From a virus (taxonomy: Duplodnaviria; Caudoviricetes): a stretch of 64,000 nt of DNA. The notes below the pieces were generated by a model, which worked only from the letters and a program-made list of their open reading frames with translations, ran no database searches and was not told the origin of the DNA. Shown piece by piece: positions 1-58,294 of the stretch. Location of the stretch: positions 1 to 64,000 of IMG/VR virus record IMGVR_UViG_3300005512_000006. One strand, given 5' to 3'. Numbering within the stretch: position 1 is the stretch's first letter; every line of letters starts with the position of its first letter. The translations under genes and the position numbers were made by a program.

Positions 1-1
1 G

Positions 2-892: not shown

Positions 893-895
893 ACG

Positions 896-1117: not shown

Positions 1118-1208
1118 CGTGGACAAGGACGCGACGGAAGCTGCGCTGGCGGCCAAGATTGAGGCCGACAAGAACCCGACGACGGCTGCTGGAGTGCCTT
1201 GGGAGTAA
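1107..1208 (+). pseudogene. Relic C-terminus of a fibre-associated protein (MVASVDKDATEAALAAKIEADKNPTTAAGVPWE)
   Basis: Matches the C-terminus of 56704..57012 (IDKEATETSLAAQIEEQKAPKTATGLPW). Confidence 0.7.
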
Positions 1209-1212
1209 TTAA

Positions 1213-3537: not shown

Positions 3538-3563
3538 CCTAGCCAAGAAAAGGAGAAACTAAA

Positions 3564-3911: not shown

Positions 3912-3954
3912 CGTGGACAAGCACCCGACGGCGGGAGTGCCGTGGTAGTAAGCA

Positions 3955-3990
3955 ATAAAAAAGGGGCCCTAGTGGCCCCTTTTCTTTATT
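3955..3990. terminator. Bidirectional intrinsic terminator
   Basis: aaaaaggggcc-ctagt-ggcccctttt between convergent transcription units. Confidence 0.85.
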
Positions 3991-4207
3991 CTGCTTCTTC
4001 GGCAGGTTTTTCGAGTTCTTTTCGTAGCAACTCCGTAAAGCCCCCACGAGCAACTTCAATCTGATCAAGGCGAGCACGCGTTGCGCGTCCTTGCTGCTCC
4101 AGATCTTGAAGCTGACCAACAATATACTTTGCTTGGTCAGACAGATCTTCAATTACATAGTTCTTGTCATCAAAGACGAGAGTCGGTTTTTCTTGTACTT
4201 CACTCAT
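3986..4207 (-). CDS. Small coiled-coil hypothetical protein
   Basis: Overlaps the nrdB stop; plausible composition. Confidence 0.7.
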   Translation of the reverse strand: MSEVQEKPTLVFDDKNYVIEDLSDQAKYIVGQLQDLEQQGRATRARLDQIEVARGGFTELLRKELEKPAEEAE

Positions 4208-5157
4208 TTAAATACATCTCCCCAGTTACCTTCTGTGGTTGAGCGAGCATATTCGGTCGCTCGGTTTTCAAAAAAGTTAGTGTGTTCAACTGCACGCAAC
4301 ATAATATCCATCCAGGGCAAAGGATTTTCGGTTGTCTTGAAAATACCCTTAAACCCCATTCCTTGTAAACGACGGTCTGCAATATAACGAATATACTCCT
4401 TTACGTCGTTCGGTGTAAGACCCGGCACTTCACACGTTCCAAAGGCCGCATCAATAAAAGCATCTTCTAGCTCAATTACTCGTTCTGCTGCACAGTAGAC
4501 TTCGTATTTCAGGCGGTCGTCCCAAATTTCGGGATTCTCTTTTACAAACTCCCGAAAGACTCGGGACATGCCCTCCACATGAAGATCTTCGTCACGAACA
4601 GACCAAGTAACGAGCTGGCCCGTGCCTTTCATCAGTCCATGACGAGGATAGTTCATCAGAATCGCAAAAGAGCTGAAGAGCTGTACTCCCTCCCCTAGAC
4701 CAGAATTGATAGCAATTGTTTTTGCAATTTCACGAGGAGTGTCAACTGAGAGCTTTGACATAAACTCATGTTTTGCTTGCATTGCTTCAATTTGGCTAAA
4801 CATCTGATACTCAGAATCATCAAATCCCAACGTATCAAGAAGCAAAGAATATGCTTGCATATGTACTGCTTCCATTGCAGCAAACGAGCTCATCATCATT
4901 CTTACTTCCGGCGGCTTGATGGTCGGAAGGTAGTAATTGCAGTATGCTCCTGCTACATCTGTGTCCGCCTGAGTAAAGAAGCGCAGAATCTGAGTCAGCA
5001 ACTTACGGCTATCGTCATCCATCTTGCGATAATCGGCTACATCTTCATGAAGCGGGACTTCGTCCGGAAGCCAGTGAGACTGTTGTTGCTTTTTATAATA
5101 CTCGAATGCCCAAGGATAATCAAAAGGCTTATAGTATTCTCTACCCTTCGTTAGCAT
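4204..5157 (-). CDS. nrdB: Ribonucleotide reductase class I beta subunit
   Basis: FFTQADTDV, EAVHMQAY (radical Tyr), EGVQLFSSF, RDEDLH, NFFENRATEY. Confidence 0.95.
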   Translation of the reverse strand: MLTKGREYYKPFDYPWAFEYYKKQQQSHWLPDEVPLHEDVADYRKMDDDSRKLLTQILRFFTQADTDVAGAYCNYYLPTIKPPEVRMMMSSFAAMEAVHMQAYSLLLDTLGFDDSEYQMFSQIEAMQAKHEFMSKLSVDTPREIAKTIAINSGLGEGVQLFSSFAILMNYPRHGLMKGTGQLVTWSVRDEDLHVEGMSRVFREFVKENPEIWDDRLKYEVYCAAERVIELEDAFIDAAFGTCEVPGLTPNDVKEYIRYIADRRLQGMGFKGIFKTTENPLPWMDIMLRAVEHTNFFENRATEYARSTTEGNWGDVFK

Positions 5158-5359
5158 TAATTTCTCCGTAGTAACCTTCTCTTGTTTTCATGTCATACCA
5201 GGCAATTGGCTTCTCCTCTTCGTTATGGTAGACGAGCTTCGGGTATGCCCAGGCAACATATGAAAACCAATTAAACTTTTGAAACTTTTCTATTTCGCCT
5301 TTCCAGTTTGGCGGGTTTGCTATAAACTTTTCTACTTCACTAGTTACTAGCCTTGACAC
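5141..5359 (-). CDS. Hypothetical protein between nrdA and nrdB
   Basis: ORF overlaps both neighbours. Confidence 0.6.
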   Translation of the reverse strand: MSRLVTSEVEKFIANPPNWKGEIEKFQKFNWFSYVAWAYPKLVYHNEEEKPIAWYDMKTREGYYGEINANEG

Positions 5360-7113
5360 GCAAAACAGTCCTCACCTTCGTCGGCCAGAATTCTTTCTCG
5401 AATTGCACTGACGTTGACGGAAGCCGAGCGATGAATCGCTTCACTTCTTAAATAATACAGAGTCTTTAGCTTTCGCTTCCATGCGAGTAGATGCAGCATA
5501 TGCAACTCTGCTTTTGTAACGTTTGCTGGAACAAACATATTCAGCGATTGAGATTGGCAAATAAACTCTTGACGCATCGCAGCATGTTCGATTACCCACT
5601 CTTGATTGATCTCAGGAGCTGTTTTAAATACGTCTTTTGTCCACTCATCAAGAAAATCTAGATGCTGTACAGAACCCTTATTGATAACAATACTGTTCCA
5701 AACATCATCGTTATCCATATTCAGCTCTTGAAGTGCGTGCTGAAGATATTCGTTCTTTACGAGCGACGTTCCGCTTTTTGTTTTTTGCGTGTAAGCATTT
5801 GCACGATACGGTTCGATACCCGGCGAAGTGTTACCGCAGATAATCGAAGAAGATGCATTAGGGGCGATAGCCAAGAGGTGAGCGTTACGAATACGCCTTT
5901 CACCTGCATCCGGACATGGTCCGCGCTCATCTGCAAGTTGCGCACTTGCCTCCACAGCTTGCTTTTTAATGTGTCGAAACATACGATAATTTGCACTGGA
6001 TGCAAGTCCGCTTTCAAACGGAATATTATGTCTTTGAAGGTACGCATGGAATCCCATAGCTCCTAAACCGATACTACGCTCTCGCATAGCTGAATATCGG
6101 GCTTTTTCAAGTTCATCAGGAGCATTTTGAATAAAGTGCTCCAGAACATTATCCAACATACGAATGAGATCAGGAATAAAAAGAGGATCATCTTCCCACT
6201 GATCAAATTCTTCCAGATTTACACTAGAGAGGCAGCAAACTGCTGTTCTCTCGGGGCTTGTAGCAAGCGTGATCTCGCTGCACAAATTGGAGTGATGCAC
6301 ATCCAGTCGGAGTTCTTTTTGATAGTCCGGAAGCCCCGCCTTGACTGCATCTTCAAACATAACATAAGGCTCTCCAGTTTCCATACGGTTCTGAAGAAGT
6401 TTCACCCAGAGAGTCTTTGCAGATACAGTTTTTGTTACTTTCTTTGTATGAGGGTCAATAAGAGACCAAGTGTCATCAAACCCTTCTTCTCGGGTTGCTC
6501 CTTCGATAAGTTCCATAAACTCATTCGGAATGACGACAGCATTATGAAGATTCAGAGCTTTTCGATTGGGATCACCGCCTGTAGGCTTGCGAACATCGAG
6601 AAACTCTTCAATCTCGGGATGACTCATATGTAGATAAGCCGCGTATGAACCCCGCCGTGTGATTCCCTGAGAGAAGGCAAGCATTTCTGCATCGACTACT
6701 TTCATAAAAGGAATTACACCAGTGCTCTCAGAGCCCTTGCTCGTAGCTGTACCAGCAGAACGAAGTGCGCTCCAGGAGCCTCCAATACCACCGCCTACGC
6801 TCGAAAGAAAAGCATTCTCAACATAGTGGTCAGTGATACCTTTACGACTATCAGGAACATAGTTCAAAAAACAACTAATCGGCAAGCCGCGGTCTGTACC
6901 ACCGTTCGACAGAACGGGAGTGGCAAACATAAACCAAAGCTGGCTTGCGTAGTTATAAAGACGCTGTGCATGAGCATCATCATCCGCGAAAGCCTTTGCC
7001 GCCCTGGCAAACGCATCCTGCGGGCTTTTTTCTCCGGGAACCATGTATCTGTCTTGTAGAGTTTTAATGCCAAACTCAGACAGATAACGGTCTCTACGGT
7101 AATCAATTTTCAT
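5347..7113 (-). CDS. nrdA: Ribonucleotide reductase class I alpha subunit (short, no N-terminal ATP cone)
   Basis: PISCF, SNLCSE, AIAPNASSS, TLYYLRS, C-terminal CFAC. Confidence 0.95.
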   Translation of the reverse strand: MKIDYRRDRYLSEFGIKTLQDRYMVPGEKSPQDAFARAAKAFADDDAHAQRLYNYASQLWFMFATPVLSNGGTDRGLPISCFLNYVPDSRKGITDHYVENAFLSSVGGGIGGSWSALRSAGTATSKGSESTGVIPFMKVVDAEMLAFSQGITRRGSYAAYLHMSHPEIEEFLDVRKPTGGDPNRKALNLHNAVVIPNEFMELIEGATREEGFDDTWSLIDPHTKKVTKTVSAKTLWVKLLQNRMETGEPYVMFEDAVKAGLPDYQKELRLDVHHSNLCSEITLATSPERTAVCCLSSVNLEEFDQWEDDPLFIPDLIRMLDNVLEHFIQNAPDELEKARYSAMRERSIGLGAMGFHAYLQRHNIPFESGLASSANYRMFRHIKKQAVEASAQLADERGPCPDAGERRIRNAHLLAIAPNASSSIICGNTSPGIEPYRANAYTQKTKSGTSLVKNEYLQHALQELNMDNDDVWNSIVINKGSVQHLDFLDEWTKDVFKTAPEINQEWVIEHAAMRQEFICQSQSLNMFVPANVTKAELHMLHLLAWKRKLKTLYYLRSEAIHRSASVNVSAIRERILADEGEDCFACQG

Positions 7114-7957
7114 TCATATACTCCAACATAGTTTCAGAGATATATTCTGCATTCTCCGAACCCACTGCGTCTTCGCAGTATGTAAGTAGGTCCATTAGCT
7201 CAACATTTGTAAGTAGCTGATCGGCGTTTTCATTGAGTGCCTGTATGTATTTGTACTTTCCGGGTAGTGGACACATAGCATGAATATCAAAAACATCGCC
7301 GAAAGTATCAATGATACTGGAAGCACGTTTAGGGCCAATCCCAGGAATGCCCGGTACGTTATCTCCCTTATCGCCAGTAAGGCATTTGAAAGTGAGATAC
7401 ATATCCGGTTCAAAGTCATAAAACTCTTCCCAATTGTCAAGCGTTGTTTCTTTTCGTGTTACATAAGAGAATCGAGAAACGTCTGCATCCACTAGCAGAT
7501 CCCAATCTCGGTCACTCGAGATCAACCATACTTCCTCGATTCCAAACTTTTTACGGTGCCTCGTGATATAGGCAGCAATGTCATCGGCCTCTACGCCTCG
7601 AAAACGATAGACGGGAAACCCTTCTTTTTTGAAACCTTCAAGAGTAACTTCATACTCTCGAAAGAAGGCTTCAAACTCTGCTTTTTCTTCTTCTGTCTGT
7701 TGATCACGAAGCTCTTTACGATTCATCTTGTACTCGGGGTCGATTGCTCGTCGAAACGAGCTATTACCCCAATCTGCTGCGATAACAATTTTACCACAGT
7801 CATAGGACTTTGCAAGAGACTTTACAGTACGAATATATTCGTGTTCAAAGTCAGTTACACCTTGGTGCTTCCAGCGAAACCCTAAGTTCATCGAATCTAC
7901 GATAAGAACTTTTGTAGGGTCTCGATCTTCTACTAGGCTGGCGAATGCTTTAGCCAC
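7103..7957 (-). CDS. 5'-3' flap endonuclease, T5 D15-like
   Basis: GVEADD, SSDRDWD, GDKGDNVPGIPGIGPKRA. Confidence 0.92.
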   Translation of the reverse strand: MAKAFASLVEDRDPTKVLIVDSMNLGFRWKHQGVTDFEHEYIRTVKSLAKSYDCGKIVIAADWGNSSFRRAIDPEYKMNRKELRDQQTEEEKAEFEAFFREYEVTLEGFKKEGFPVYRFRGVEADDIAAYITRHRKKFGIEEVWLISSDRDWDLLVDADVSRFSYVTRKETTLDNWEEFYDFEPDMYLTFKCLTGDKGDNVPGIPGIGPKRASSIIDTFGDVFDIHAMCPLPGKYKYIQALNENADQLLTNVELMDLLTYCEDAVGSENAEYISETMLEYMNEN

Positions 7958-7972
7958 CTTCAGCCTCCTTGT

Positions 7973-8413
7973 TTAACCTTTTAACCAAATTATGGTTTCT
8001 GACTCTAACCATTCCTTTGCCAACATAGTATAGCAATTAAGAGACGAAATGTAAAGAAAATTATTTACCTTTTCTGGTTCTATCTCAGTGCAGACAAATA
8101 CTTGAGAGCGATTATACTTAAAAAACAATAAGGGCTCTTGTCCGCCATTTCGAGCTTGTTCGTCTAACTTGGTCCACCAGCGAATAAGATTGTTAGATTT
8201 GTTTGTAAAAATTTTATCTGTTAGGGGTGACTCAGCATAGTTCTTTACTTCGATACAAAAGCGGTTTTGCTCTCCGGGAACATAAATATCTCCCTTTAAA
8301 TATGAAAGAGCCCCCGAAGCGGGGACTCTCTCAAACTGCAAACCAGATGCTTCTCGAAGTAGGTCTCTTACTAAATATTCACCTCGACTACCTTTTGCTC
8401 TTGAATCTACCAT
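7973..8413 (-). CDS. Holliday-junction resolvase-like protein, T5 D14-like
   Basis: SRAKGSRGE, GDI, IEVK PD-(D/E)xK motif; T5 synteny. Confidence 0.85.
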   Translation of the reverse strand: MVDSRAKGSRGEYLVRDLLREASGLQFERVPASGALSYLKGDIYVPGEQNRFCIEVKNYAESPLTDKIFTNKSNNLIRWWTKLDEQARNGGQEPLLFFKYNRSQVFVCTEIEPEKVNNFLYISSLNCYTMLAKEWLESETIIWLKG

Positions 8414-10206
8414 TCTAACCTACTTTGATTGTCGTCTTTGACAACTTGAACTTTTGTGAGAAGAGGATGACTCCACTGGTGACTTACTAGATAAGTATTT
8501 AGAAACTCTTCTTTCAAAAGAACTTCTACTATCTTTTCTCGGCCTTGTTCATCCAAAACATTAATCACTTCGTCAAGAAAAAGAACGTTGATTTGTGACT
8601 TTGAAATACTACTCATAAGTTTGCGAATTGCAATCAGTGTAGCAGTATTTACTCTTGCTAGCTCTCCGCTAGAAAGAACACTAATGTCAACTTCTTTTCC
8701 ATTGTCAGTAATATTTACATTGAGCTTGTCGTTTGAAACTGCAAACTCGAGAGTAAATCTGCCATCAGAAAGCTCTGCCAAATACGTGTTTGTTAGCTCT
8801 TCCAGTTCTTTTACAAGATTCTCGATTTTATAGGCTAACAAGCCGTTCGTAGAGAATGCTTTCTTGAGAAGCTCCAGATGCATTGCTGTAGTTTCTACAC
8901 TCTCTAATTCTGACTGTGCTTTATTTAACTGACTCACAAACTCATCGGTCTGCTCTTGAATGACGGAAATACGAGTATTTAGCCTTTCTCGCTTTTGATT
9001 TTCGTCAATCAACTTTTTCAGTTTACTGCGAGCTTCTGTAATGTTTTGCTGAAGAGTGTCGTACTCCTCTTGTAGCTCGTCTGCATTGTAGAGTTCTATA
9101 GGCAGCGCGTGATCAATTGCAGAATACAGCTTTTCAAACTCGCTCTCTAGCTTTCTTTTCTTCTCAAAGAGTTCGTTATTTTCTTTAATCTCTTCTACAC
9201 GAGCGTAAATCTCTTTTGCCTGCTCTGTAAGTTGTGCAATTTTAGACTCTTGCTCTGAGACAATGTTCGACTTGAATTCTTCGTCGATTTCTTGTCCACA
9301 AGTGTAGCATTGATTACCTAGTTTCTTTGTTTTTTCAAGAACAGTTTCCGCAGCTTTTTTCTCTGCTCGAATCGCTCCAAGCTGGCTGGTTTCTTTCTCA
9401 TGAGATTGATACTCTGTAGCAGGTATCTTTGAAATCTCAGAGAAATTTAACTTAGAAAGCTGATCTTTATAGTGATTATTTCTCGAAATTATTTTATTGT
9501 TTTTGGAAATATTTTCAATTTTAGTCGAAAGACTACCGAGTAACTTCTCGTCTTCTTCCGTGTCGATAGAAATTTCGAGCAGAGGCTGTACCTCTGTAGT
9601 GCTCAATTTATTATCGTTTAACCACTTTTCAATGGTATTAATTTGCGAAGTCAAGCTAGTGACTTCGATGTTTACGTCTTTTGCCAGCTTTTTAAATACT
9701 TCAAAGTATTCAACATATTCTTCTAAGTTTAACAAATCAATCAGAAACTTTTTTCTATTTGTATCTGTTGCCGTTAGAAATTGAAGACTCGAGTTCGTAT
9801 TTTGATACACTAGCTGACTGAAAGTTTTGAAGTCAATACCAAGAACTTCTTGAATCGACTTGTAAGTATTTGTAGCTGTATGGGAAGAAATATCTTCTCC
9901 ATTCTTTAGAAACTTAACTTTAAGCGACGTCTTGCGATTTAAGTCAATTTCATACTCATCAGTATCTTTTGTAAAAGTTAGGTTAATTTTGTAACCTGCA
10001 TCTACATAGCGGTTTGGAACGTCTGCTTTCTTTACACCTTTTGAGTTTTTATTGTAAAGAACTTCTTCTAGTATAAGAGGAATTGACGACTTTCCAACAC
10101 CGTTTGTACCAACAATTTGAGTCAGTCCGCTCTCTTGAAGGTCCAGAACATTCTCTGGACCGTAAGAAAAGCAATTACTCCACGTTAACTTGTTTAGCGT
10201 AATCAC
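8407..10206 (-). CDS. SbcC/Rad50-like recombination ATPase, T5 D13-like
   Basis: Walker A GTNGVGKS, CYTC zinc hook, LSSGE signature, LFLDE; GTG start at 10206 after GGAG. Confidence 0.92.
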   Translation of the reverse strand: MITLNKLTWSNCFSYGPENVLDLQESGLTQIVGTNGVGKSSIPLILEEVLYNKNSKGVKKADVPNRYVDAGYKINLTFTKDTDEYEIDLNRKTSLKVKFLKNGEDISSHTATNTYKSIQEVLGIDFKTFSQLVYQNTNSSLQFLTATDTNRKKFLIDLLNLEEYVEYFEVFKKLAKDVNIEVTSLTSQINTIEKWLNDNKLSTTEVQPLLEISIDTEEDEKLLGSLSTKIENISKNNKIISRNNHYKDQLSKLNFSEISKIPATEYQSHEKETSQLGAIRAEKKAAETVLEKTKKLGNQCYTCGQEIDEEFKSNIVSEQESKIAQLTEQAKEIYARVEEIKENNELFEKKRKLESEFEKLYSAIDHALPIELYNADELQEEYDTLQQNITEARSKLKKLIDENQKRERLNTRISVIQEQTDEFVSQLNKAQSELESVETTAMHLELLKKAFSTNGLLAYKIENLVKELEELTNTYLAELSDGRFTLEFAVSNDKLNVNITDNGKEVDISVLSSGELARVNTATLIAIRKLMSSISKSQINVLFLDEVINVLDEQGREKIVEVLLKEEFLNTYLVSHQWSHPLLTKVQVVKDDNQSRLEW

Positions 10207-34252: not shown

Positions 34253-34671
34253 TTCGTTCCTCCTGCCACTTCTTTACATACCACCAAGTATTCAAATCTT
34301 GCTCCCTGCTGAGGCGTGTCTTCATCTGCAAAATAATAACGAAGAAGCCCACTAAACAAAAGAACTGCTAAAACCCCGTTGAGAAGTAGAATTGCTCTGT
34401 CTTTCCATAAAAAACCCACTACAAACCAGCCTAAGACTCCAACCCAGCTAAGAAGCATATCGGCCCAAATAAGCTCAGGAATCCCCGAGGATCGAATAGT
34501 AACGGCTGCAAGTGTAAAAATACTTGAGGCCCATTTAATGTACCAAGAAAGATCTCCTTTCGGAGTTGCACTCTTCTGAATGCGGGCAGACCGACGAACC
34601 TCTTCTACTGAAAAGTTTTCGCCCGTCTTTTCGTTTTTAATTTTTTCCACTACCAGGTTTCCCGAATCCAT
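34237..34671 (-). CDS. Three-TM membrane protein (TPKGDLSWYIKW)
   Basis: Hydrophobic segments. Confidence 0.65.
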   Translation of the reverse strand: MDSGNLVVEKIKNEKTGENFSVEEVRRSARIQKSATPKGDLSWYIKWASSIFTLAAVTIRSSGIPELIWADMLLSWVGVLGWFVVGFLWKDRAILLLNGVLAVLLFSGLLRYYFADEDTPQQGARFEYLVVCKEVAGGTKCINS

Positions 34672-34727
34672 TCTTCGTAGGGCAAAAACTTACACTGGTG
34701 AAAGGACCAAAACTTACAATGTTTCAT
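34650..34727 (-). CDS. 25-aa peptide MKHCKFWSFHQCKFLPYEEWIRETW
   Basis: Paralogue with the same length at 39476-39553. Confidence 0.6.
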   Translation of the reverse strand: MKHCKFWSFHQCKFLPYEEWIRETW

Positions 34728-34962
34728 CTTTTTTCCTCACTAGAATTTCGACTTCGTACTCTCCCGTTCGCCGAAGCATATCAATAAGTCGCTCCAAAGG
34801 AAAGTTATGTTTACCTTTACGAAAATGAGACCAGTCCGTTGGCTCACACTTGATTTGTTCTTGCGTTTTCTTGAAAGGAGTACCTTCTTTCTTTTTGTCG
34901 AAGGCCCAGTCAATAAGAAGCTCTTTGAGCATATCTTGCTCTGGAATTTTTACTTTAGCCAT
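34714..34962 (-). CDS. XRE-like HTH protein, copy 1
   Basis: SHFRKGK.NF.LERLI.ML; paralogue of 39540..39785. Confidence 0.65.
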   Translation of the reverse strand: MAKVKIPEQDMLKELLIDWAFDKKKEGTPFKKTQEQIKCEPTDWSHFRKGKHNFPLERLIDMLRRTGEYEVEILVRKKDETL

Positions 34963-36574: not shown

Positions 36575-39482
36575 CTATATCTCCAGCGGCTCAAAACTTT
36601 CGTCAATGTACTTCATATGGTATTGTGAGGGATAGTGCCTCAACAAGCGACTTGCTTCTTCGCGCACTGCTTTGGGCACACGAGGATATTTCTTGGGATC
36701 ACGCAGATCCAGCAAAAATCGTTCCACTCGTAATACTGCTTGTGTTCTCTCAATTGGTAATGTCATCTGCCCACCTAATCTTTTTGCCGTAGTCTTTTTC
36801 AAATAGCGTAATCAGTTCATCGTACGGCACTTGTTCTTCCGATTTAAACTCATCTAACCAATCACTGAGGGCATTCCAGTCTTCACCGTGCATCACTGGT
36901 AGACCGTATTCTAGAGGATAGTGTTCATCAGGTACGCCGTAAATGTCAATACGACCACCGGAATATTGAGTAGTAACTTCGTATCCTACTATCTCTGACA
37001 CATCACCTTCTTCAATAATCTTGCGACTAACTGTGCGAAGAAGCCCTCGCTCCTTATACCAATTTGTTGAAATAGGTCCCATCCAGTTAGTACTGTAAGT
37101 TACCATTCTACATTCATCCAATTCGTATTTTCTGGCATCAGTTCAACTGCATCACCGAAGCGTTCTTTGAGTTGATTATACACACCGGCATTGTTCATTC
37201 GTAGACCATAACGATCTACCCAAACTTTGTAAACACTTCCGCTGTAACCATAAAAACTGTAATACGTTTCGTGGTCTTCTATACGAGTAATGCCGCTGTT
37301 CATTCGCCATGAATCGCCATCAAGATATCCACCACTCCAGCCAGCAAGCACTTTGTATAGTGTCTTGCCTTCGTGGTTGATCTTCAGTACGACCCAGTTG
37401 TCTGGTAGATATTCGCTCATCACCACTCCGGAGCGCTGTAAGGTTTACTCATTGTATACATTGCCATGCCATCTGAACCGTAAGCAGGGCAAACGAGAAT
37501 GTGTTCAGGCAAGCCCATTCCGTCTCGTTCACCTGCTTCACCGCAGATGAAGAACGCTCCTGTTTTTTCGGGGCTGGTGTGCTTCCAGACATGCAACAGT
37601 TTCATGAACAGTTCGTATTCTTCATCCGTAATTTCTTTCATTACTCACTATCCTCGTCTTTAACCCAGCGGACACCGAGCAGCAGCCAGAACATTTGACG
37701 GTGGAACCAATTCGGATGGCGGCCTTTCATGGGCCTATAGCTCACGTCATACGCAATGCAGCTCCACTCGGAGAGCTTCGGGACTTGAATGGCTGTTTGC
37801 ACCAGGCGAGGGTCAAAATTCTCCATGTCCACCTGAATCGATTCGTTGTTGTTACTCATTACTCACCCTTATAGTTTATCAGCACTTGTAACAGTTCCCA
37901 CTCACCGTAAGAGAGACTGAACTTCTCGCCACCCCTCCTGCGATCAATACAGATGTCGTACCCTTCACCGTTCGACCACTCAGTGACTTCCATGTAGTCA
38001 TGGTCGCCACTATGCATACAATAATCTTTGAGTCCTGAGAATACTGCTCGGCGAGTGCTTACTTCTATTTTGCTCATTCTTCAACTCCGAAATGTTTATT
38101 TCTGAATTCTAGCATTGTCAATATCAAACTCATACAAAATAGCCTGGGCACCAGCATCACCATCTTGACAAGTTGTATACACAATACTAGCACATTCTTG
38201 TACAATCAACTCGGCGACTTGTAGTAACTGGCTTAGTTCGGTTTCAGTAAACGCATAGTCCTTGCCATATACTTCTTGAAAGATTTCTAAACGGTTCATT
38301 CTTCAACTCCGAAATGTTCTTTGATTGATTCCGCAATCTTTGTGGCGGTGCCATCAACTGTAGCATGAGCATCGCACCAATCGATGCACTCCCTGACAAT
38401 CAACTCGGCGAACTTTGCTAGTTCGTTATCATAGTCGCTCGACCAATCAAAGACCGCACCTTCAGGTTTCCAAGATTCGTCCTCCCACATTGCAAATCCT
38501 GCTTGTTCAGCAAGTTTTTGAATTCGTTCGTTCATAAATCTTCTTTCCAACTTAGGTTGTCAATAAACACTTTGAGTGTGCGGTCATCATCTTGTAAACT
38601 ATACTTGATTACTTCATTGTCCTTGAGATACTTAACATAAGTACGACCTTTATCATCAATCACTTCAAAGCGAGTTACATTCTTCATAGCACTCAACTCA
38701 AAACTATCGAAAATCATATTGTGAAGCGTCATATAACCACAGTCCATGCCGCGCCCATACATGCCCGGATCAAAACCAAACACATCATACAGTGCATAGC
38801 GATAAGTACCATGGTCTACAACCTCTGCTTTGTGCATGCGTTTGATCACAGCATAGAACGCATCTTCACGTTCTTCTTCAGTGAGACCGTTCCACCATGC
38901 ATCGTTCTCGGCTTCGTACTCAGCATGTGCTTCTTGCAGTGATTCGCGCAGTTCGTCAAGTCCTTCCAACAGTTTCTTATTGCTCATAGCTTTACCTTTA
39001 CGATAAAACCTTCTTCAGCTCTACGAATGTGTTCGATGGCTTTACCTTCTACTAAAGATCCAATTGCAACATACGGGCCCCCACTTGGATCGAACATACC
39101 AAGATCATTCATATCGATTTTATCTTGGCCTTCTTTCGCGCCCCAAAGACAGTAATCCATCGACTCGCCTTCCATCACAAACTTGTATTCTTTGTCATTG
39201 AGTTTTTCCCAATGATACTCGTCGCCGTATCTATTTTTCATCTGCTTGATTCCTACGCAAAGCGTGATGTTCTTTCGTAACTTTTTCAAAAGTGTTCCAG
39301 AGACGTTCAAAGCGCATCTGATAGAGAGCTGCCATGCCCAGAAGAAGATTATCTCGCTTATCTTCAGGATTCAGAGCATCGCCTTGCCACTCATTTAAAA
39401 ACTCTACCGCATCCTTGAGATCGTCTACGACACTCCAGGCTTTCATAATTTCTTGTTCAAGATCAAAAATGATCATTACCAA
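36575..39482 (-). CDS. Array of about 10 small, translationally coupled hypothetical genes
   Basis: ORFs at 36575, 36750, 37100, 37420, 37641, 37859, 38096, 38296, 38532, 38984, 39231 with ATGA/TAATG overlaps. Confidence 0.7.
38074..38318. repeat. 23-bp direct repeat TCATTCTTCAACTCCGAAATGTT flanking one small gene
   Basis: Copies at 38074-38096 and 38296-38318. Confidence 0.9.
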
Positions 39483-39553
39483 GTCTCCTTAATCCACTCG
39501 TCATAGGAAAGAAACTTGCGCTGATGAAAGGACCAAAACTTACAGTGTTTCAT
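39476..39553 (-). CDS. 25-aa peptide MKHCKFWSFHQRKFLSYDEWIKETW
   Basis: Paralogue of 34650-34727. Confidence 0.6.
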   Translation of the reverse strand: MKHCKFWSFHQRKFLSYDEWIKETW

Positions 39554-39785
39554 TTTTTCTCCTCACGATAACTTCGATTTCAAACTCACCTGTACGTCGT
39601 AGCATTGCAATGAGACGCTCTAGAGAGAAATTTCTTTTTCCTTTGCGAAGATGAGAAAATTCTGTAGCATCACATTTAATTAGCTCTTGAGTCTTTTTAA
39701 ATGTGATTCCAGCTTTCTTTTTTTCCCAGGCCCAATCAATAAGAGTCTGAGTGAGAGTTTCTTGTTCCGGTATCTTTACTTTCAT
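39540..39785 (-). CDS. XRE-like HTH protein, copy 2
   Basis: SHLRKGKRNFSLERLIAML. Confidence 0.65.
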   Translation of the reverse strand: MKVKIPEQETLTQTLIDWAWEKKKAGITFKKTQELIKCDATEFSHLRKGKRNFSLERLIAMLRRTGEFEIEVIVRRKNETL

Positions 39786-44815: not shown

Positions 44816-45010
44816 AAAAATGATGGTTTTTATCTGCATCTCGCCCTTGGGCACCACCCCTATACGCAACTTAATCGTGGCTGATGGCGCTTGCTAACGA
44901 CAGACCGGGCGAACCAACAACCGGTAAACGGCCCTCACGATTTGAGCATTGTTAAGAGGCTTGGAGGGCTCTATAATGCCGGATTTATGGGTCCGGCTGC
45001 CCCCATTTCT
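44816..45010 (-). ncRNA. Candidate ~190-nt structured RNA leading the tRNA operon
   Basis: TTGATT-N17-TATAAT at 45016-45044; several stems; possible pseudoknot. Confidence 0.55.
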
Positions 45011-50018: not shown

Positions 50019-50315
50019 CTACACGGCTGAGAGAAGGGCCTGTAGCGACTGCTTCGTAGCTTTCTCAAGCCCGGACAGGTTAGCGCCAACCTTCTCCGAA
50101 ATCTGCGCAACCAGGTCCTCCTTCGAGACAGCCGGACCGCCATTCTTGGACATACGAGCCTTGCGCTCATATTGAATGCCAGCACGAACTGCGGCAGCGA
50201 TAATAGCACGCGGCTTTTCACCAAACTGCTCAGCAAGTGCTTCTGCTTTTTCCAGGTTGAGAGGAGCTGCTGCCTGCATTGCTGCGAGTACTGCGTCGTC
50301 GAAACGAGATGCCAT
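50019..50315 (-). CDS. A2-like DNA-binding protein (close paralogue of 51404..51703)
   Basis: AEQFGEKPRAIIAAAVRAGIQYER, GLEKATK. Confidence 0.75.
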   Translation of the reverse strand: MASRFDDAVLAAMQAAAPLNLEKAEALAEQFGEKPRAIIAAAVRAGIQYERKARMSKNGGPAVSKEDLVAQISEKVGANLSGLEKATKQSLQALLSAV

Positions 50316-50488
50316 AATAGTTTTTCCTAGAGTCTCCGGGGATGCCCATTGCTTCCCCTATGTTTGAAAAGATATTATACGGAGGGCCGAGCAAAAAAGC
50401 AAGAAAAATTTTCGACCGTCTGTCGAGAGACATCGAAAGTTTTTCTTGACAACGCGCGTGCTTTCGTGGTACAATATAATGGGCTAGG

Positions 50489-50598
50489 TTTCGCACTTTG
50501 GTGCCTGCGGCACGTTTTTTAGGTTTATCACTTTCGCACTTTGGCGCGGAGCGCAAACTCAATAGATTGTTGACTTTGCACTTTGGCGCGAAGCGCGC
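50489..50598 (+). repeat. Three GCACTTTGG + mini-hairpin units at 43/42-bp spacing
   Basis: GCACTTTGG at 50493, 50536, 50578. Confidence 0.85.
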
Positions 50599-50610
50599 AT
50601 TTGATTGTCA

Positions 50611-50809
50611 AATGCAATAGTTGTTGAATGCAATAGTTGTTGAATGCAATAGTTGTTGAATGCAATAGTTGTTGAATGCAATAGTTGTTGAATGTAATAG
50701 TTGTTGAATGCAATAGTTGTTGAATGTAATAGTTGTTGAATGCAATAGTTGTTGAATGTAATAGTTGTTGAATGCAATAGTTGTTGAATGTAATAGTTGT
50801 TGAATGCAA
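50611..50809 (+). repeat. 16-bp tandem array AATG(C/T)AATAGTTGTTG, 12 full units plus a partial
   Basis: Counted directly; variant order CCCCCTCTCTCT. Confidence 0.97.
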
Positions 50810-50859
50810 CTAATTTGCGGAATGAGAATCATTCGCAAAAGACCGTTCGTCGGCTCGGG

Positions 50860-50934
50860 CTTGACTTTTGAAATTGGCATGGATATTGCAGGCCCCGCTC
50901 TTATGCAAGAACCGTGCCAATCTCAAAAGTCAAG
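50860..50934. promoter_or_regulatory. Inverted repeat carrying two facing sigma54 (-24/-12) motifs
   Basis: TTGGCATGGATATTGCA (+, 50874) and TTGGCACGGTTCTTGCA (-, 50904-50920); third copy CTGGCATGAAAATTGCT at 51152. Confidence 0.7.
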
Positions 50935-51403
50935 GATTATTTTGGAATAAGCATATAACAAAAAAGACTAAAAAACCTATTGACAGACCCCCGCCCGCTC
51001 GCGTAAAATCTCCCAAGAGGGGTGCGGGTAAAATTTTGGCGCGACCCCTGGTCGCTACCTTTATTATAGCAGCCCGCCCGCCCATTTGTCCAATTGTTTT
51101 TTTCTATCGAAAGGCCCGGACCCATTCAAATAATCAATTGGACAAACAGACCTGGCATGAAAATTGCTTGCGACCATTCGTCGGCTCGGCTTGACCTAGC
51201 TTCCGAAGTATGCTATTTTGGCGCGCGGCGAAGCCGCTATTTCCATTATAACATTTTTTGGTGCCGGGCTGTCAAGCAGTTTTTTTCGATGAAAAGCGCT
51301 TTTATCATCGAAAATTTCAATGATAAAAACCTTGCCTTTCTCGCTCTCGGGGGCCATAATGCTCGGGCAGTAAAGGAAAACGTTTCAATTAAGGAGTTTC
51401 AAT

Positions 51404-51703
51404 ATGGCTAGCAAGTTTGAAGGTGAGGTGATGGCTGCTATGGTAGCAGCTGCGCCCTTGGATATGGCGAAAGCTACGGCTATCGCCGAACAATTCGGGG
51501 AAAAGCCGCGTGCCATTATTGCTGCAGCAGTTCGCGCCGGTATTCAATACGAGCGCGCAGCAAAGCGTAGCAAGGACGGCTCGCCGGTTCAATCGAAGGA
51601 AGATATCGTGCGAGCCATTTCTGACAGGCTAGGCGTTAGCCTTCCCGGCTTGGAAAAGGCTACTAAAGAAAGCCTGGGAGCGCTTTTCAATGCGCTGGGA
51701 TAA
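51404..51703 (+). CDS. A2-like DNA-binding protein (pre-early candidate)
   Basis: AAGGAG RBS; TTGCCT..CATAAT promoter upstream; paralogue of 50019..50315. Confidence 0.78.
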   Translation: MASKFEGEVMAAMVAAAPLDMAKATAIAEQFGEKPRAIIAAAVRAGIQYERAAKRSKDGSPVQSKEDIVRAISDRLGVSLPGLEKATKESLGALFNALG

Positions 51704-51707
51704 CGTT

Positions 51708-51887
51708 ATGGGGTGGGTGGGCGCTTGCGCGCTCGCCCTCGCTCCCTACCATATGCCAGGGGTCAGGGGTTACTGGCTCGCTTGCGTAGGGCTCGCCCTA
51801 CTCACCACGCAAGCAGCCAGGCTCCGGGCTTGGAATTTGGTGGGCCTAAATATTGTTTCCATTGTTGGCTACTGGAGCCTAATATAA
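51708..51887 (+). CDS. Small membrane protein
   Basis: Hydrophobic; WNLVGLNIVSIVGY. Confidence 0.6.
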   Translation: MGWVGACALALAPYHMPGVRGYWLACVGLALLTTQAARLRAWNLVGLNIVSIVGYWSLI

Positions 51888-52330
51888 TGCTTATTTTTGA
51901 TTTAGATGGGACCGTGGTTTGCTCTCGCCATCGCCAGCTGGCGTGCCCCGATGGTTCCCTGGACCTAGACGCATGGCGCGAACATTCCACGCCGGAAAAA
52001 ATTGAGCAGGATTCGCTGCTTCCCCTGGCTCGCCTCATGCGCCATGCTCTCGCCACGGATAAGCAGGTGGCAATATGTACCGCTCGAGTTTTAGGTGATG
52101 CTGACAGGGCATACCTTCGCAAGCATGGCCTAGAAGCGCCAGTAATTCTGGCGCGCAGTGAAGGGGACAATCGTTCGGATGCAGAATTGAAGCGAGAAAA
52201 ACTGCTTTCCTTGGGAGTGGACCTGCGCGGCGTTACGTTCTATGATGACAATCACTCGGTTCTAGCAATGGCCCGAGAGTTGGGCATCAACGCCCTAGAT
52301 GCAACCTTAATAAATGAGGCTTTAAAATGA
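51887..52330 (+). CDS. HAD-family phosphatase (PNK-3'-phosphatase/nucleotidase-like)
   Basis: IFDLDGT, CTAR, D..LK, FYDDN. Confidence 0.82.
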   Translation: MLIFDLDGTVVCSRHRQLACPDGSLDLDAWREHSTPEKIEQDSLLPLARLMRHALATDKQVAICTARVLGDADRAYLRKHGLEAPVILARSEGDNRSDAELKREKLLSLGVDLRGVTFYDDNHSVLAMARELGINALDATLINEALK

Positions 52331-52947
52331 TTATCTGTTTAGTGGATACGGAAACAACCTCGGGGAATACTGTTGCCGATTTCGGAGCAGTAATTGCCGA
52401 TTTAAATTCCGGTGAAGTATTAGATGAAATTGGAACGCTTATATATAATCAGTTTGATAAAATGGAATTATGGTCCAATCCCCATTCTAAGCCTGGCGAG
52501 TTTTGGTCAATTCAAAATGTTAGGGCACGCCGTAAACATTATATGTCACGCATTGAATCCGGTTCGCGTTCTATTGCATCTAATCATTTAATTAATATTT
52601 GGTTATCTAAAAATGTGGGGCGCTATAATCCGGCAGTCACCGCATTTAATATCTCTTTTGATTATCCAAAGTGTATGGCGACAGATATTAATTTAGGATT
52701 ATTCAGAAAGCGTTTTTGTTTGCTTCAAAAGGCTCGCGCTTATTTTAGTAATGACGCGAATTATATTAAATATTGCCATGCTAATAATGCGTTAACTAAA
52801 ACGGGTAAGCCTAAAATGACCGCCGACAATGTAGCGCGCTATATTATAGGCGAACAATTAGAAGCGGAGCCGCATACAGCTTTGGAAGATGCGCGTGATT
52901 ATGAATTACCTATTGCGCAGTTTCTATATAATAAAGGCGCCTTATAA
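52327..52947 (+). CDS. DEDDh 3'-5' exonuclease
   Basis: VDTETT, AFNISFD, HTALEDA. Confidence 0.82.
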   Translation: MIICLVDTETTSGNTVADFGAVIADLNSGEVLDEIGTLIYNQFDKMELWSNPHSKPGEFWSIQNVRARRKHYMSRIESGSRSIASNHLINIWLSKNVGRYNPAVTAFNISFDYPKCMATDINLGLFRKRFCLLQKARAYFSNDANYIKYCHANNALTKTGKPKMTADNVARYIIGEQLEAEPHTALEDARDYELPIAQFLYNKGAL

Positions 52948-53069
52948 GGCGCCTTATAACAGGGTTTAAATATGCTTTATATTATTATGGCTATTATGGT
53001 TTTAATCCCCCTAGGCGCGCTTGTTTACGCAATTATAACTGATCCGATTATTTGGAGAAAATAATGCGC

Positions 53070-53290
53070 CTAATAACTAACGCTTATTATTATAAGTCGC
53101 CCGTTGTAGCATGGCGTTCTTATTATTATAAAGGGCATCTAGTTACATATATAAGGCGTGATTACCGCAAGTAATAACGCGCCCCCGTTATAATATATAA
53201 CGGGGGCTAGTTATATATTATAACGGGGGGCGGTAATGAGACTCATTCTCATTTAGTTGCTCGCCACACACCCACACGTGTAACACGCAA
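53070..53290. other. Candidate genome-terminus / terminal-repeat boundary
   Basis: AT-rich repeats, cccccgttata..taacggggg inverted repeat, Fur-like palindrome; lies between pre-early-like and terS-side genes. Confidence 0.45.
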
Positions 53291-57012: not shown

Positions 57013-57467
57013 TGAATAAACTCCCGACGATCTCTCCAGAAGGTCTCGAGCTGGCCAACGCTTATCTGTCGTTTGGATCGCTAAAAGAGGCGGCGTCCTC
57101 TCTGGCGATCTCTCCAGATAAGGCTGCTGAGATTCTTGATCGTCGAGAAGTGCGTTCTTATATTGATCAAGTTTATCTTGACCTAGGCTATCGCAATCGT
57201 TTTCGTTTAGGTAGCCTTCTGGATGAGATTATTGAGAAAAAGTTTGAAGAAGCGCAAGAATCGGATATGTATACCAGCAAAGACCTTGTGGACCTCATTC
57301 AACTTGCGCACAAGATGAGAATGGATGAGCTAAAGGCTCAGCAACAGCAAACAACGATTAAAAATCAGACAAATGTCCAGATAAATGAAACTCCATTTGG
57401 GCAAGGCAACTACGGCAAACTTATGACAAAATTGCTGGGTGGTATAGATGAATCAAGTAATAAATAA
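57012..57467 (+). CDS. terS: Terminase small subunit, T5-like
   Basis: [34 protein letters not shown]. Confidence 0.85.
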
Positions 57468-58083
57468 TATTTTAACCTGTCTAAGCCGTTCTGGAAAAGA
57501 GGTTGTAAAAAGAAAACGCGGAAAGAGCCCCGAAGTCACTTTATACGAGTTAGTTTCTTTGTACTTAAACGAAGGGGATATTGAAAGTATATCAAAAAAG
57601 CTGTATGTTAATAAAGACACAGTTTCAAGAATAACTAACAAAACTTTCCCCGATGCAAACAAAGAAAAAGGAAAAAGCTGGAAAACTTATTTTTTAGACT
57701 TGAGCGATTTCAAATATTGTGGAAGCTGTAATAAATACAAAGAAAACAACGCTTTCGGTAACTGGAGCTCTACGTCTAACGGTCTTAGTATTTGGTGCTC
57801 TAAGTGCGACAATGAAAGGTCAAAAAAGTACTATAAAAGACATCCAGAAGTATCAAAACACCATGCGTCAAAAAGAAAAGCAATCTTGTTGAATAGAATG
57901 GTGATTCCTTCTCAAGAAGAACAAATACGTCTCTTTTACGCTAACTGCCCGAAGGGACACCATGTAGACCACATCGTTCCGCTACAGAACCCTCTAGTGA
58001 GCGGTCTTCATGTTTTGAGTAACTTACAATACCTTCCCGCCAAGGAAAATTTGGCTAAGAGCAACAAGTTTGTTGTAGGGTAA
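57448..58083 (+). CDS. Free-standing HNH endonuclease
   Basis: [26 protein letters not shown]. Confidence 0.85.
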
Positions 58084-58090
58084 TTACTTC

Positions 58091-58294
58091 ATGGAGAAAC
58101 TAAGTCTTAGCCTACTTCTGGGCTTTACTCTTGAGTTTGCTGCTGTAATTTGGTGGGCTTCTGCACTTTCCGAAAAAGTAGAGGCTCATGAAGAAGCTCT
58201 CAACAAGCAAGAAGTAATGCTTGAAAAAGTAAACCAGCTTCAAGTCGATGTTGCTAGAGTTCATGCACAACTCGAAATACTGGTGAAACAATGA
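58091..58294 (+). CDS. Small TM/coiled-coil protein
   Basis: VIWWAS then a coiled coil. Confidence 0.65.
   Translation: MEKLSLSLLLGFTLEFAAVIWWASALSEKVEAHEEALNKQEVMLEKVNQLQVDVARVHAQLEILVKQ

What the first reader, a model, noticed from the sequence alone, without database searches (positions are those of the whole stretch)
50820..51360. Dense cluster of host DNA-binding-factor sites at the probable injection-stop / terminal-repeat region
Seen: about 550 bp with no real gene. It holds three sigma54 motifs, a Fur-like palindrome and at least four sigma70 promoters in facing pairs (50980+/51063-, 51191+/51245-). It also holds a ~24-bp direct repeat (50841, 51172), a 12-bp inverted repeat (tttgtccaattg 51085 / caattggacaaa 51135) and LysR-like palindromes (51283-51328). 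Known: T5 injects DNA in two steps, pausing at a repeat- and palindrome-rich signal next to A2. Inference: the phage may recruit several unrelated host proteins as a landing pad to anchor, pull or gate DNA entry, or to read host N/Fe status before second-step transfer. A transcription-factor sponge is an alternative.
Basis: partly seen in the sequence, partly recalled or inferred. Interest (0 to 1): 0.85.

Follow-up and report, generated by a model that had tools for sequence, protein, structure and literature searches.

The report
Sigma-54 docking hub in T5-like phage
A gene-free kilobase in an uncultured marine relative of phage T5 holds conserved landing sites for the host's sigma-54 and sigma-70 RNA polymerases, plus a short palindrome that also sits in T5's DNA "injection stop" region, so it is a real control hub whose link to DNA entry remains untested.

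Summary
The only three sigma-54 -24/-12 matches in the 98-kb genome lie within 300 bp here (expected 0.07 per 64 kb). In relatives about 80% identical, their -24/-12 letters match at 48 of 48 positions and the letters between at 14 of 42. Facing sigma-70 promoter pairs, GC mini-hairpins, the direct repeat and the palindromes are all present, and no gene is. The "LysR" label has no support and the "Fur" label is only a resemblance.

The block is the divergent control region upstream of a pre-early-type operon containing a true dmp homologue. By position it matches T5 Repeat Region 2 better than the injection-stop signal. Two links to that signal exist. The "Fur-like" 13-mer occurs exactly three times per T5 terminal repeat, only inside the annotated iss. 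Cultured Vibrio T5-like phages carry sigma-54 sites in both gene-free stretches of their terminal repeat. No DnaA boxes occur here, and termini could not be mapped because only contig-level runs were available.

The 2.4-kb operon between the two palindrome copies is inverted relative to 22 of 22 related loci.

This scan has noted sigma-54 site clusters in T5-like phages before on other DNA. My paper searches found only phage YuA's sigma-54 promoter.

The parts
50316..51403 (.). Whole gene-free control block between the divergent paralogous genes p98L (-) and p99 (+)
   Evidence: ORF lists. No Pfam family for the internal ORFs. Indels in relatives.
50019..50315 (-). p98L, a 98-aa paralogue of p99 and first gene of the leftward early arm
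   Evidence: 67% identity to p99, E 8e-33.
50375..50403 (-). Sigma-70-type promoter of p98L (TTGCTT, 17 nt, TATAAT)
   Evidence: Read. Nearly invariant in L007.
50400..50448 (.). 16-nt-arm palindrome over the p98L promoter. It carries the TCGAAAATTT word that recurs inverted at 51308.
   Evidence: I4, I9 and D10. Conserved in L007.
50446..50475 (+). Sigma-70-type promoter (11 of 12 consensus positions) reading into the 43-nt repeats
50485..50598 (+). Three 42-43-nt repeats, each ending in a GC mini-hairpin with a 3-nt loop
   Evidence: D2 and D4. Hairpins. L007 has two units.
50611..50809 (.). 16-bp tandem array of 12.4 copies. Copy number varies among relatives.
   Evidence: L002 is 32 bp shorter. 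L007 has about 3 units.
50817..50840 (.). PAL-1, the 'Fur-like' palindrome with core AATGAGAATCATT
   Evidence: The same 13-mer occurs in T5 iss.
50841..50858 (+). D8 copy 1 (core ACCGTTCGTCGG), a conserved site for an unknown factor
   Evidence: 12 of 12 positions match in L003 and L004. Also present, inverted, in L057.
50875..50890 (+). Sigma-54 site P1
   Evidence: -24/-12 letters match at 12 of 12 positions in each of L003 and L004.
50904..50919 (-). Sigma-54 site P2, nose-to-nose with P1
   Evidence: (I1).
50980..51009 (+). Sigma-70-type promoter, module 1
   Evidence: Hexamers conserved in L003.
51041..51055 (.). GC mini-hairpin of module 1, preceded by the near-invariant TTTTGGCGCG (one change in L004)
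51063..51092 (-). Sigma-70-type promoter facing module 1
   Evidence: Hexamers match L003 at 11 of 12 positions, the spacer at 10 of 18.
51085..51146 (.). Inverted repeat TTTGTCCAATTG / CAATTGGACAAA
   Evidence: I2.
51153..51168 (+). Sigma-54 site P3
   Evidence: In L003 the -12 element is degraded here, but an intact copy sits next to the array.
51172..51189 (+). D8 copy 2
51191..51219 (+). Sigma-70-type promoter, module 2
51225..51237 (.). GC mini-hairpin of module 2. Its stem changes in a compensatory way in L004 and L005.
51245..51275 (-). Sigma-70-type promoter facing module 2 (19-nt spacer, TGn extended -10)
   Evidence: Read. Hexamers match at 12 of 12 positions in each of L004 and L005.
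51283..51328 (.). Palindromes. The right-hand one (51306-51322) is a conserved operator-like site upstream of the p99 promoter.
   Evidence: I6 and I7. 17 of 17 positions match in L004 and L005, and 6 of 17 in L003.
51332..51360 (+). Sigma-70-type promoter of the p99 operon
   Evidence: Hexamers match at 12 of 12 positions in each of L004 and L005.
51404..51703 (+). p99, a small helical protein with an HTH-like N-terminus. It sits in the A2 position of the operon.
51713..52330 (+). HAD phosphatase, a homologue of the T5-type dmp. The real start is probably near 51880.
   Evidence: 39% identity, E 5e-28, to the dmp of Vibrio phage Gary.
53226..53257 (.). PAL-2, the second palindrome copy at the far end of the operon, next to the TerS-arm promoter
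   Evidence: The same block occurs in L057 and L003.

Best explanation
The block is this phage's counterpart of the untranslated repeat regions of the T5 terminal repeat. By position it is closest to Repeat Region 2, the divergent promoter region upstream of the A2-A1-dmp operon. It works as a docking and promoter hub for host RNA polymerase.

Shown:
- It holds three genuine, selected sigma-54-holoenzyme recognition sites, two of them nose-to-nose.
- It holds a duplicated module in which two sigma-70 promoters face each other across a GC mini-hairpin.
- It holds the promoters and operator-like palindromes of the two flanking paralogous genes.
- It holds a hexamer-array palindrome (PAL) that it shares with T5's iss.

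Inferred:
- Sigma-70 polymerase fires the two divergent early operons from here. The facing promoters interfere with each other.
- The phage encodes no recognisable enhancer-binding ATPase. Sigma-54 polymerase therefore either waits for a host activator and serves as a conditional second promoter set for the p99-dmp operon, or sits as a stable closed complex that insulates the two arms.
- PAL and the D8 word are bound by a factor common to this phage group. That factor could be phage-encoded (for example the HTH-like p99 family) or a Fur-like host protein.
For: Sigma-54 sites are non-random: 3 in the window against 0.07 expected, and they are the only 3 in 98 kb.

Conservation is selective. 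The -24/-12 letters match at 48 of 48 positions in L003 plus L004, against 14 of 42 for spacers and the stretch between the sites (Fisher p 3e-13).

Relatives carry the motif too. The strict motif gives 15 hits in 6 of 76 related loci (451,671 bp). A looser form gives 32 hits against 2.55 in shuffles. L057 has three tandem sites upstream of its p99 homologue, and L053 has a nose-to-nose pair upstream of TerS.

Sigma-70 hexamers are kept while their spacers drift. Hairpin stems change in a compensatory way.

The operon resembles the T5 pre-early operon. The dmp homology has E 5e-28, and the layout matches T5, VPT02 and Gary.

In Gary, a sigma-54 site at 3969+ lies 456 bp upstream of A2 and points the same way.

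The operator word TCGAAAATTT occurs at both paralogue promoters (I9, D10).

The genome has no PF00158 domain.
Against: - There are no expression data, because all runs found were DNA contigs.
- The host is unknown, so the presence of rpoN is assumed.
- No common upstream activator site was found for the sigma-54 sites.
- The strict sigma-54 motif occurs in only 2 of the 22 related loci that span the control region next to TerS (L053 and L057). It is therefore not essential to the whole clade.
- Promoters 50980+ and 51191+ run into terminator-like hairpins within about 45 nt, which is odd for operon promoters.
- The nose-to-nose geometry is awkward for two productive promoters.
- The p99 DNA-binding fold is only a weak match, at Z 5-6.4.
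Confidence: 0.6

Rival explanations
1. Injection-stop or DNA-entry gate. The block, or its PAL plus sigma-54 part, is the cis-acting site where first-step DNA transfer pauses. Host proteins (sigma-54 holoenzyme closed complexes and a PAL-binding protein) clamp the entering DNA until products of the adjacent operon release it.
For: - The PAL 13-mer occurs exactly 3 times per T5 terminal repeat, all inside the annotated iss at 9587-9668. It occurs nowhere else exactly in 121,750 bp.
- Davison places the calculated shear point near 9618 in his own record's coordinates (passages read).
- The Vibrio phage Gary record holds both terminal repeats (8157 bp, 100% identical). It has a sigma-54 site at 424, inside the gene-free inner edge of the repeat and beside DnaA boxes. 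VPT02 shows the same pattern.
- Two PAL copies bracket the dmp operon here, as T5's 131-bp inverted repeats bracket a 3-kb segment.
- This is the only gene-free block of about 1 kb that I saw in the genome, and sigma-54 closed complexes are stable without an activator (the latter from established knowledge).
Against: - The flanking genes are divergent here. T5 iss lies between convergent genes.
- The block has 0 DnaA boxes, and the genome has no cluster of them.
- There is no A1 homologue, and A2-likeness is weak.
- In 22 of 22 related loci the operon points the other way, and PAL lies in a compact control region next to the TerS arm.
- Termini are unmapped.
Confidence: 0.18
2. Replication origin or partition-like site. 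The 16-bp array serves as iterons for the flanking small HTH-like proteins, and convergent transcription and the GC mini-hairpins open or prime the DNA.
For: - The array has 12.4 units and is flanked by paralogous HTH-like proteins.
- Cumulative GC skew turns at about 50 kb.
- The mini-hairpins have GNA-type loops.
Against: - Array copy number ranges from about 3 to 12 among close relatives.
- The GC-skew turn equally follows the switch in gene direction.
- There are no DnaA boxes.
- The array lies outside the finding's coordinates.
Confidence: 0.1
3. Decoy or sponge. The sites titrate host sigma-54 holoenzyme or other factors away from host promoters and have no cis function.
For: - The sites are near-consensus and clustered.
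- The phage encodes no activator.
- The nose-to-nose pair recurs in 45 viral stretches.
Against: - Three sites per genome are few for titration until after replication.
- The sites keep a fixed position and orientation next to the early operon in relatives, which argues for a cis role.
Confidence: 0.08
4. Chance clustering of consensus look-alikes in an AT/GC-patchy spacer.
For: - The Fur-like score of PAL-1 (13 of 19) is unexceptional.
- PAL at up to 2 mismatches is not enriched, with 5 hits against 3.6 expected.
Against: Shuffle controls and the motif-specific conservation argue against chance.
Confidence: 0.02

Closest known systems
[quoted passage not shown]
   Same: - It is a gene-free, repeat- and palindrome-rich kilobase beside the pre-early operon that contains dmp.
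- It has strong sigma-70 promoters and tandem short repeats.
- It shares the exact 13-mer AATGAGAATCATT with T5 iss.
- A pair of related elements brackets a 2-3 kb coding segment.
   Different: - It has no DnaA boxes and no 131-bp IRD'-spacer-IRC' element.
- It has sigma-54 sites instead, whereas T5 has none in the 33 kb I scanned.
- There is no DNA similarity beyond the 13-mer.
- The terminal repeat is not mapped here, and A1 is absent.
Gene-free stretches of cultured Vibrio T5-like phages Gary (NC_055913) and VPT02 (MN954399)
   Same: Sigma-54 -24/-12 consensus sites lie in the divergent stretch upstream of the A2-type operon and in the iss-position stretch. The operon layout next to TerS is the same.
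   Different: The Vibrio phages combine the sigma-54 sites with paired DnaA boxes and lack PAL. DNA polymerase is only about 45% identical.
Enhancer-dependent sigma-54 (RpoN) promoters of bacteria, and the sigma-54-like promoter of Pseudomonas phage YuA (PMC10914365, one passage read, citing Ceyssens 2008)
   Same: The sites match the YTGGCACG-N4-TTGCW consensus, with conserved -24 and -12 elements and a free spacer.
   Different: No activator gene or recognisable enhancer was found. Two sites face each other with 13 nt between the -12 elements, so they cannot both fire.
Face-to-face promoter switches such as pR/pL of coliphage 186 (recalled, no call)
   Same: Two sigma-70 promoters converge, with starts 12-40 nt apart.
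   Different: Here the module is duplicated and centred on a GC mini-hairpin, and no lysogeny genes were seen.

Membership tests
Sigma-54 (RpoN) -24/-12 recognition site | YTGGCACG-N4-TTGCW, with GG and GC one helical turn apart | tested here: met
   Three exact matches. All have Y before TGG, G after TGGCAY and W after TTGC.
Sigma-54 (RpoN) -24/-12 recognition site | The -24 and -12 elements are conserved while the spacer is free to vary in relatives | tested here: met
   48 of 48 positions match against 14 of 42.
Sigma-54 (RpoN) -24/-12 recognition site | An enhancer-binding AAA+ activator and an upstream activator site | tested here: inconclusive
   PF00158 is absent from the phage genome. 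No shared upstream site was seen across loci. The host's activators are unknown.
Sigma-54 (RpoN) -24/-12 recognition site | Binding by, or transcription from, sigma-54 holoenzyme | not testable with these tools
   No RNA runs or raw reads were available.
T5 injection stop signal (Repeat Region 3) | Large untranslated stretch at the inner edge of the terminal repeat | not testable with these tools
   The assembly shows no end repeat. 11 of 11 virus records are classed linear. Only contig-level runs were found.
T5 injection stop signal (Repeat Region 3) | Paired DnaA boxes in inverted repeats around a 52-bp spacer (Davison) | tested here: not met
   0 of the genome's 7 TTWTNCACA hits, and 0 of its 24 one-mismatch hits, lie in 50316-51403.
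T5 injection stop signal (Repeat Region 3) | The repeated AAATGAGAATCATT-type units beside the shear point | tested here: met
   The exact 13-mer is at window 50821, with a one-mismatch copy at 53235. In T5 it is at 9587, 9610 and 9656 only, in each repeat copy.
T5 injection stop signal (Repeat Region 3) | Lies downstream of the rightward pre-early genes, convergent with the first early gene | tested here: not met
   The flanking genes p98L (-) and p99 (+) diverge. In T5, T5.017 (+) and T5.018 (-) converge.
T5 injection stop signal (Repeat Region 3) | A cis-acting stop of DNA transfer | not testable with these tools
   This needs infection experiments.
T5 Repeat Region 1/2 (divergent promoter region upstream of A2-A1-dmp) | Lies between divergent operons, one of which carries dmp and reads towards the TerS-side junction | tested here: met
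   The dmp homologue has E 5e-28. The gene order is p99-TM-dmp-206aa, then PAL-2, then the secreted-protein operon and TerS. This compares.
T5 Repeat Region 1/2 (divergent promoter region upstream of A2-A1-dmp) | The operon contains A1 and A2 | tested here: inconclusive
   No A1-like hit was found among the 14 + strand ORFs tested between 51404 and 63281.

Results for p99 against A2:
- BLASTP E 0.81.
- hhalign probability 33% against Gary A2 and 0.4% against T5 A2.
- An ESM Atlas neighbour cluster carries Phage_T5_A2 in 11% of its members.
- That Pfam family is not in the local library.
Fur box | Close match to the 19-bp consensus (recalled) | tested here: inconclusive
   PAL-1 scores 13 of 19, as do 47 other 19-mers. 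PAL-2 scores 15 of 19, which 3 sites in the genome reach. T5 iss units score 15-16 of 19.
LysR-type T-N11-A box | ATC-N9-GAT-type dyad upstream of a divergent regulator gene | tested here: not met
   0 hits in the block. No LysR gene was seen. Only the right-hand palindrome is conserved, and its core word recurs at the paralogue's promoter.

The most novel reading that the evidence does not exclude
T5-like phages pause or gate their entering DNA by docking it to whichever abundant host DNA-binding machine their lineage has adopted. T5 and Vibrio phages would use DnaA. Marine lineages would use sigma-54 holoenzyme closed complexes. An unidentified protein would bind the AATGAG-hexamer palindrome in both T5 and this clade. 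In this phage the nose-to-nose sigma-54 pair plus PAL would be the stop/gate, and the PAL-bracketed dmp operon would be the first-step cassette, which can invert or drop out.
Probability: 0.15. Interest if true: 0.85.

Novelty: new variant of a known kind. Interest (0 to 1): 0.62.

Why it matters
What stops T5 DNA after 8% has entered is a decades-old open question. Davison's DnaA-docking idea is the only specific proposal that I read. This block supplies three testable handles:
- A 13-bp word shared between T5's iss and a very distant marine clade.
- Conserved sigma-54 sites that cultured Vibrio T5-like phages also carry in their terminal-repeat gene-free stretches.
- A natural inversion or deletion polymorphism of the palindrome-bracketed operon.

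Use of sigma-54 holoenzyme by virulent phages is barely documented. My searches found only YuA. A conserved nose-to-nose pair hints at a non-promoter use of a polymerase that can sit on DNA without firing.

Tried and rejected
- DNA similarity to 50,697 phage records: none. p99 by tblastn against the same records: none.
- A single-protein scan of IMG/VR found no relative. The alignment-based scans did.
- Rfam at the permissive threshold gave only sub-threshold hairpin look-alikes.
- DnaA, IHF, CRP and ATC-N9-GAT patterns have no hit in the block.
- Termini:
  - Self-BLAST shows no end repeat.
  - Only Logan contigs were on offer, with a best share of 0.34. Laying four runs gave no depth steps or molecule ends.
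  - 15 of 23 IMG/VR contigs end in the quarter downstream of the p99 homologue (p 5e-5). However, the 17 ends I compared share no sequence and lie scattered from p99 to the later paralogues. I read this as assembly breaks in a variable, paralogue-rich region, not as a mapped terminus.
- The hairpin reading of the 31-nt inverted repeat is rejected. In L003 the arms stay alike only where the sigma-54 and TTGAC words are.
- The p99 model had no Foldseek PDB match at E <= 0.001.
- TRF on L067 found no array like the window's.
- The supplementary files of Davison's preprint, which describe the repeats, were not opened. They may name the unit that holds the 13-mer.
Full report
WHAT THE GENOME IS

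The window is the first 64 kb of a single 98,214-bp virus record. IMG/VR classes it as linear and CheckV puts its completeness at 100. It encodes a split NAD ligase, SbcC, ribonucleotide reductase, DnaB-type and other helicases, and a family-A polymerase. The polymerase's best match among 50,697 phage records is to T5-like Vibrio phages at about 45% identity, and all 2191 matching records are below 60%. It is therefore a distant member of the T5-like group.

Genes form two arms that diverge from 50316-51403.
- The minus arm runs from 50315 down to 4204 and carries early and replication genes and two tRNAs.
- The plus arm starts at 51404 and runs through a small terminase subunit at 57012 into the structural genes.

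THE OBSERVATION

- The three sigma-54 -24/-12 matches are the only ones in 64 kb (0.07 expected; 0 of 100 shuffles reach 3). They are also the only ones in the whole genome.
- Sigma-70-like sites number 6 against 2.1 +/- 1.5, and terminator-like hairpins 9 against 1.7 +/- 1.1.
- The mechanical ORFs inside the block have no family and are broken by indels in relatives.
- Just left of the finding lie a further promoter, three 43-nt repeats with GC mini-hairpins and a 16-bp array of 12.4 units. These belong to the same gene-free block.

RELATIVES

The two genes flanking the block are paralogues at 67% identity. An alignment of 18 homologues retrieved 53 metagenome loci and 23 IMG/VR loci.
- L002 is the same phage, at 98% identity and with two fewer array units.
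- L003, L004, L005 and L007 are 75-81% identical across the block.

In L003 and L004 the -24 and -12 letters of the nose-to-nose pair match at 48 of 48 positions. The spacers and the 13 nt between the sites match at 14 of 42 (Fisher p 3e-13). Sigma-70 hexamers are likewise kept while spacers drift. Hairpin stems change in a compensatory way, and the word TTTTGGCGCG in front of them is near-invariant (one change in L004). L004 and L005 have one facing-promoter module where the window and L003 have two, so the 182-bp duplication is recent.

The strict sigma-54 pattern hits 15 times in 6 of 76 loci (451,671 bp). A looser form hits 32 times against 2.55 in shuffles.
- L057, whose p99 homologue is 38% identical, has the palindrome, then three tandem sigma-54 sites 26 nt apart, then the D8 word inverted, then a sigma-70 promoter and the p99 homologue.
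- L053 has a nose-to-nose pair beside a degenerate palindrome, a CACGTG box and the TerS-arm promoter.
- L009 has at least eight sigma-54-like words around its homologue.

These sites are real, selected sigma-54 recognition sites. They are not universal, however. Of the 22 loci that span the control region next to TerS, only L053 and L057 have them.

POSITION RELATIVE TO T5

In T5 the terminal repeat holds the following, in order:
- dmp, A1 and A2, all leftward.
- A divergent promoter region (Repeat Regions 1/2).
- Seven rightward genes.
- The iss.
- The first early gene, which is convergent.

The terminal repeat abuts the TerS arm. Vibrio phages VPT02 and Gary have the same plan.

In the window, the 205-aa ORF at 51713 is a true dmp homologue, with 39% identity over 164 residues and E 5e-28 against Gary's dmp. 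The operon p99-TM-dmp-206aa reads towards the TerS-side junction, as in T5. The block therefore sits where Repeat Region 2 sits, upstream of the A2-position gene. It does not sit where iss sits.

The p99 evidence is as follows:
- It shows no significant similarity to T5 A2.
- It has a weak C-terminal profile match to Gary's A2, with probability 33%.
- It has an ESM Atlas neighbour cluster in which 11% of members carry the Phage_T5_A2 family.
- Its N-terminal 46 residues look like a three-helix HTH, with Z 5-6.4, which is within the range of common arrangements.

No A1 homologue was found.

LINKS TO ISS

There are two links.

First, the "Fur-like" palindrome's 13-mer occurs exactly at T5 positions 9587, 9610 and 9656. 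Near copies lie at 9691 and 9697. All are inside the annotated iss (9140-10149), and the pattern is repeated in the right terminal repeat. The only other near match in 121,750 bp is a single one-mismatch hit.
- Of five 13-mers shared between the block and 16 kb of T5, four belong to this word.
- Davison puts the calculated shear point near 9618, in the coordinates of a different T5 record.
- The palindrome recurs in many relatives. It typically lies 180-380 bp upstream of the first p99 homologue, in L056, L057, L058, L061, L067, L068 and L074. In several loci it occurs as AATGAG-hexamer arrays.

Second, Gary's record contains both terminal repeats (1-8157 equals 120446-128602, 100% identical).
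- Its two unique strict sigma-54 sites lie at 424 and at 3969.
- Site 424 is in the gene-free inner edge of the repeat, next to DnaA boxes at 450 and 500.
- Site 3969 is in the divergent gene-free stretch, 456 bp upstream of A2.
- VPT02 has sites at 762, 3075 and 3330 beside DnaA boxes.

Against the iss reading, the window's block has no DnaA box and the genome has no cluster of them.

TERMINI

Termini could not be mapped. The assembly has no end repeat. All 11 virus records examined are classed linear. Only contig-level runs exist.

INVERSION

In 22 of 22 related loci that hold both TerS and the p99/TM/dmp module, the module is divergent from TerS. Some of these loci are near-duplicates, such as L067 and L068. 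In the window and in L002 the module is co-directional with TerS.

The module is bounded by the two palindrome copies, at 50817-50840 and 53226-53257. In L057 and L053 the sigma-54 sites abut the copy that, in the window, lies at the far end. The 2.4-kb palindrome-bracketed segment has therefore inverted in this lineage. L003, an 80% relative, shares the window's orientation, so this is not a misassembly.

One low-depth contig of run X3 joins 50837 to 53226, which may be a relative without the segment.

HOW WIDESPREAD THE PAIR IS

A 22-letter pattern for the nose-to-nose pair finds 45 stretches in the viral collection and 47 in the genome collection of 596 billion bases.
- Five of the viral stretches are relatives of this phage. 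In the four of them whose locus also holds TerS, the pair lies 460-620 bp from it. None of the 47 bacterial stretches encodes a homologue of the window's proteins.
- The bacterial hits are concentrated in a few assemblies.

EARLIER WORK AND LITERATURE

Earlier notes of this scan had already reported sigma-54 clusters in T5-like phages on other DNA, and had reported that cultured Vibrio phages share them. I checked the Vibrio claim myself.

In the paper library, three searches turned up only the sigma-54-like promoter of Pseudomonas phage YuA (one passage read). A fourth search led to Davison's preprint. In the preprint's main text the whole words Fur and sigma do not occur.

VERDICT

The block is a conserved polymerase-docking and promoter hub, equivalent in position to T5 Repeat Region 2, and it shares one specific word with T5's iss. 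Whether it also gates DNA entry is open, and I put that at about 0.18. The Fur reading is a resemblance only, and the LysR reading is unsupported.

Noticed in passing
window 50838-53225 (bounded by 50817-50840 and 53226-53257): The 2.4-kb p99-TM-dmp-206aa operon, together with the sigma-54 sites, is inverted relative to 22 of 22 related loci that hold both it and TerS. The two palindrome copies mark the ends.
   Followed up: yes
window 50837 joined to 53226: One contig of run X3 (depth 2.9) joins the two palindrome copies with 4 letters between them. It may be a relative that lacks the operon (table 5c).
   Followed up: no
window 51705-51799 and L057 10305-10399: The small membrane-protein gene is 94% identical in DNA between two phages whose neighbouring p99 genes are only 38% identical in protein. 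This suggests recent exchange.
   Followed up: no
window 53268-53283; L053 about 16240; end of L003: A CCACACGTGT(A)AC box lies between the second palindrome and the TerS-arm promoter. It is conserved in distant relatives.
   Followed up: no
window 50611-50809: Copy number of the 16-bp array varies. It is 12.4 here, two units fewer in L002 and about 3 in L007. L003 and L004 begin inside the array.
   Followed up: partly
window 57412-58091: Contigs of runs X2 and X4 skip about 675 bp that hold the HNH/endonuclease VII-like ORF just after TerS. This is a presence/absence polymorphism of a homing-type gene.
   Followed up: no
window 44931-44968 (-): Rfam abiF RNA match above the gathering score (52.2 against 37 bits), next to the two tRNA genes.
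   Followed up: no
L055-L077: 15 of 23 IMG/VR contigs end within the quarter downstream of the p99 homologue (binomial p 5e-5). The 17 ends I compared share no sequence.
   Followed up: partly
L128-L174: Bacterial hits to the nose-to-nose sigma-54 pattern are concentrated in a few assemblies. One Flexilinea bin has 10 loci and one Acidimicrobiales chromosome has 7. They look like a repeated element or binned phage DNA.
   Followed up: no
window 39474-39782 and 34648-34956; genome 84.2-85.9 kb: There is a 310-bp direct repeat at 75% identity in the early arm. There are also dense tandem repeats inside the 1960-aa tape-measure-sized ORF (80301-86183), which I did not annotate.
   Followed up: no
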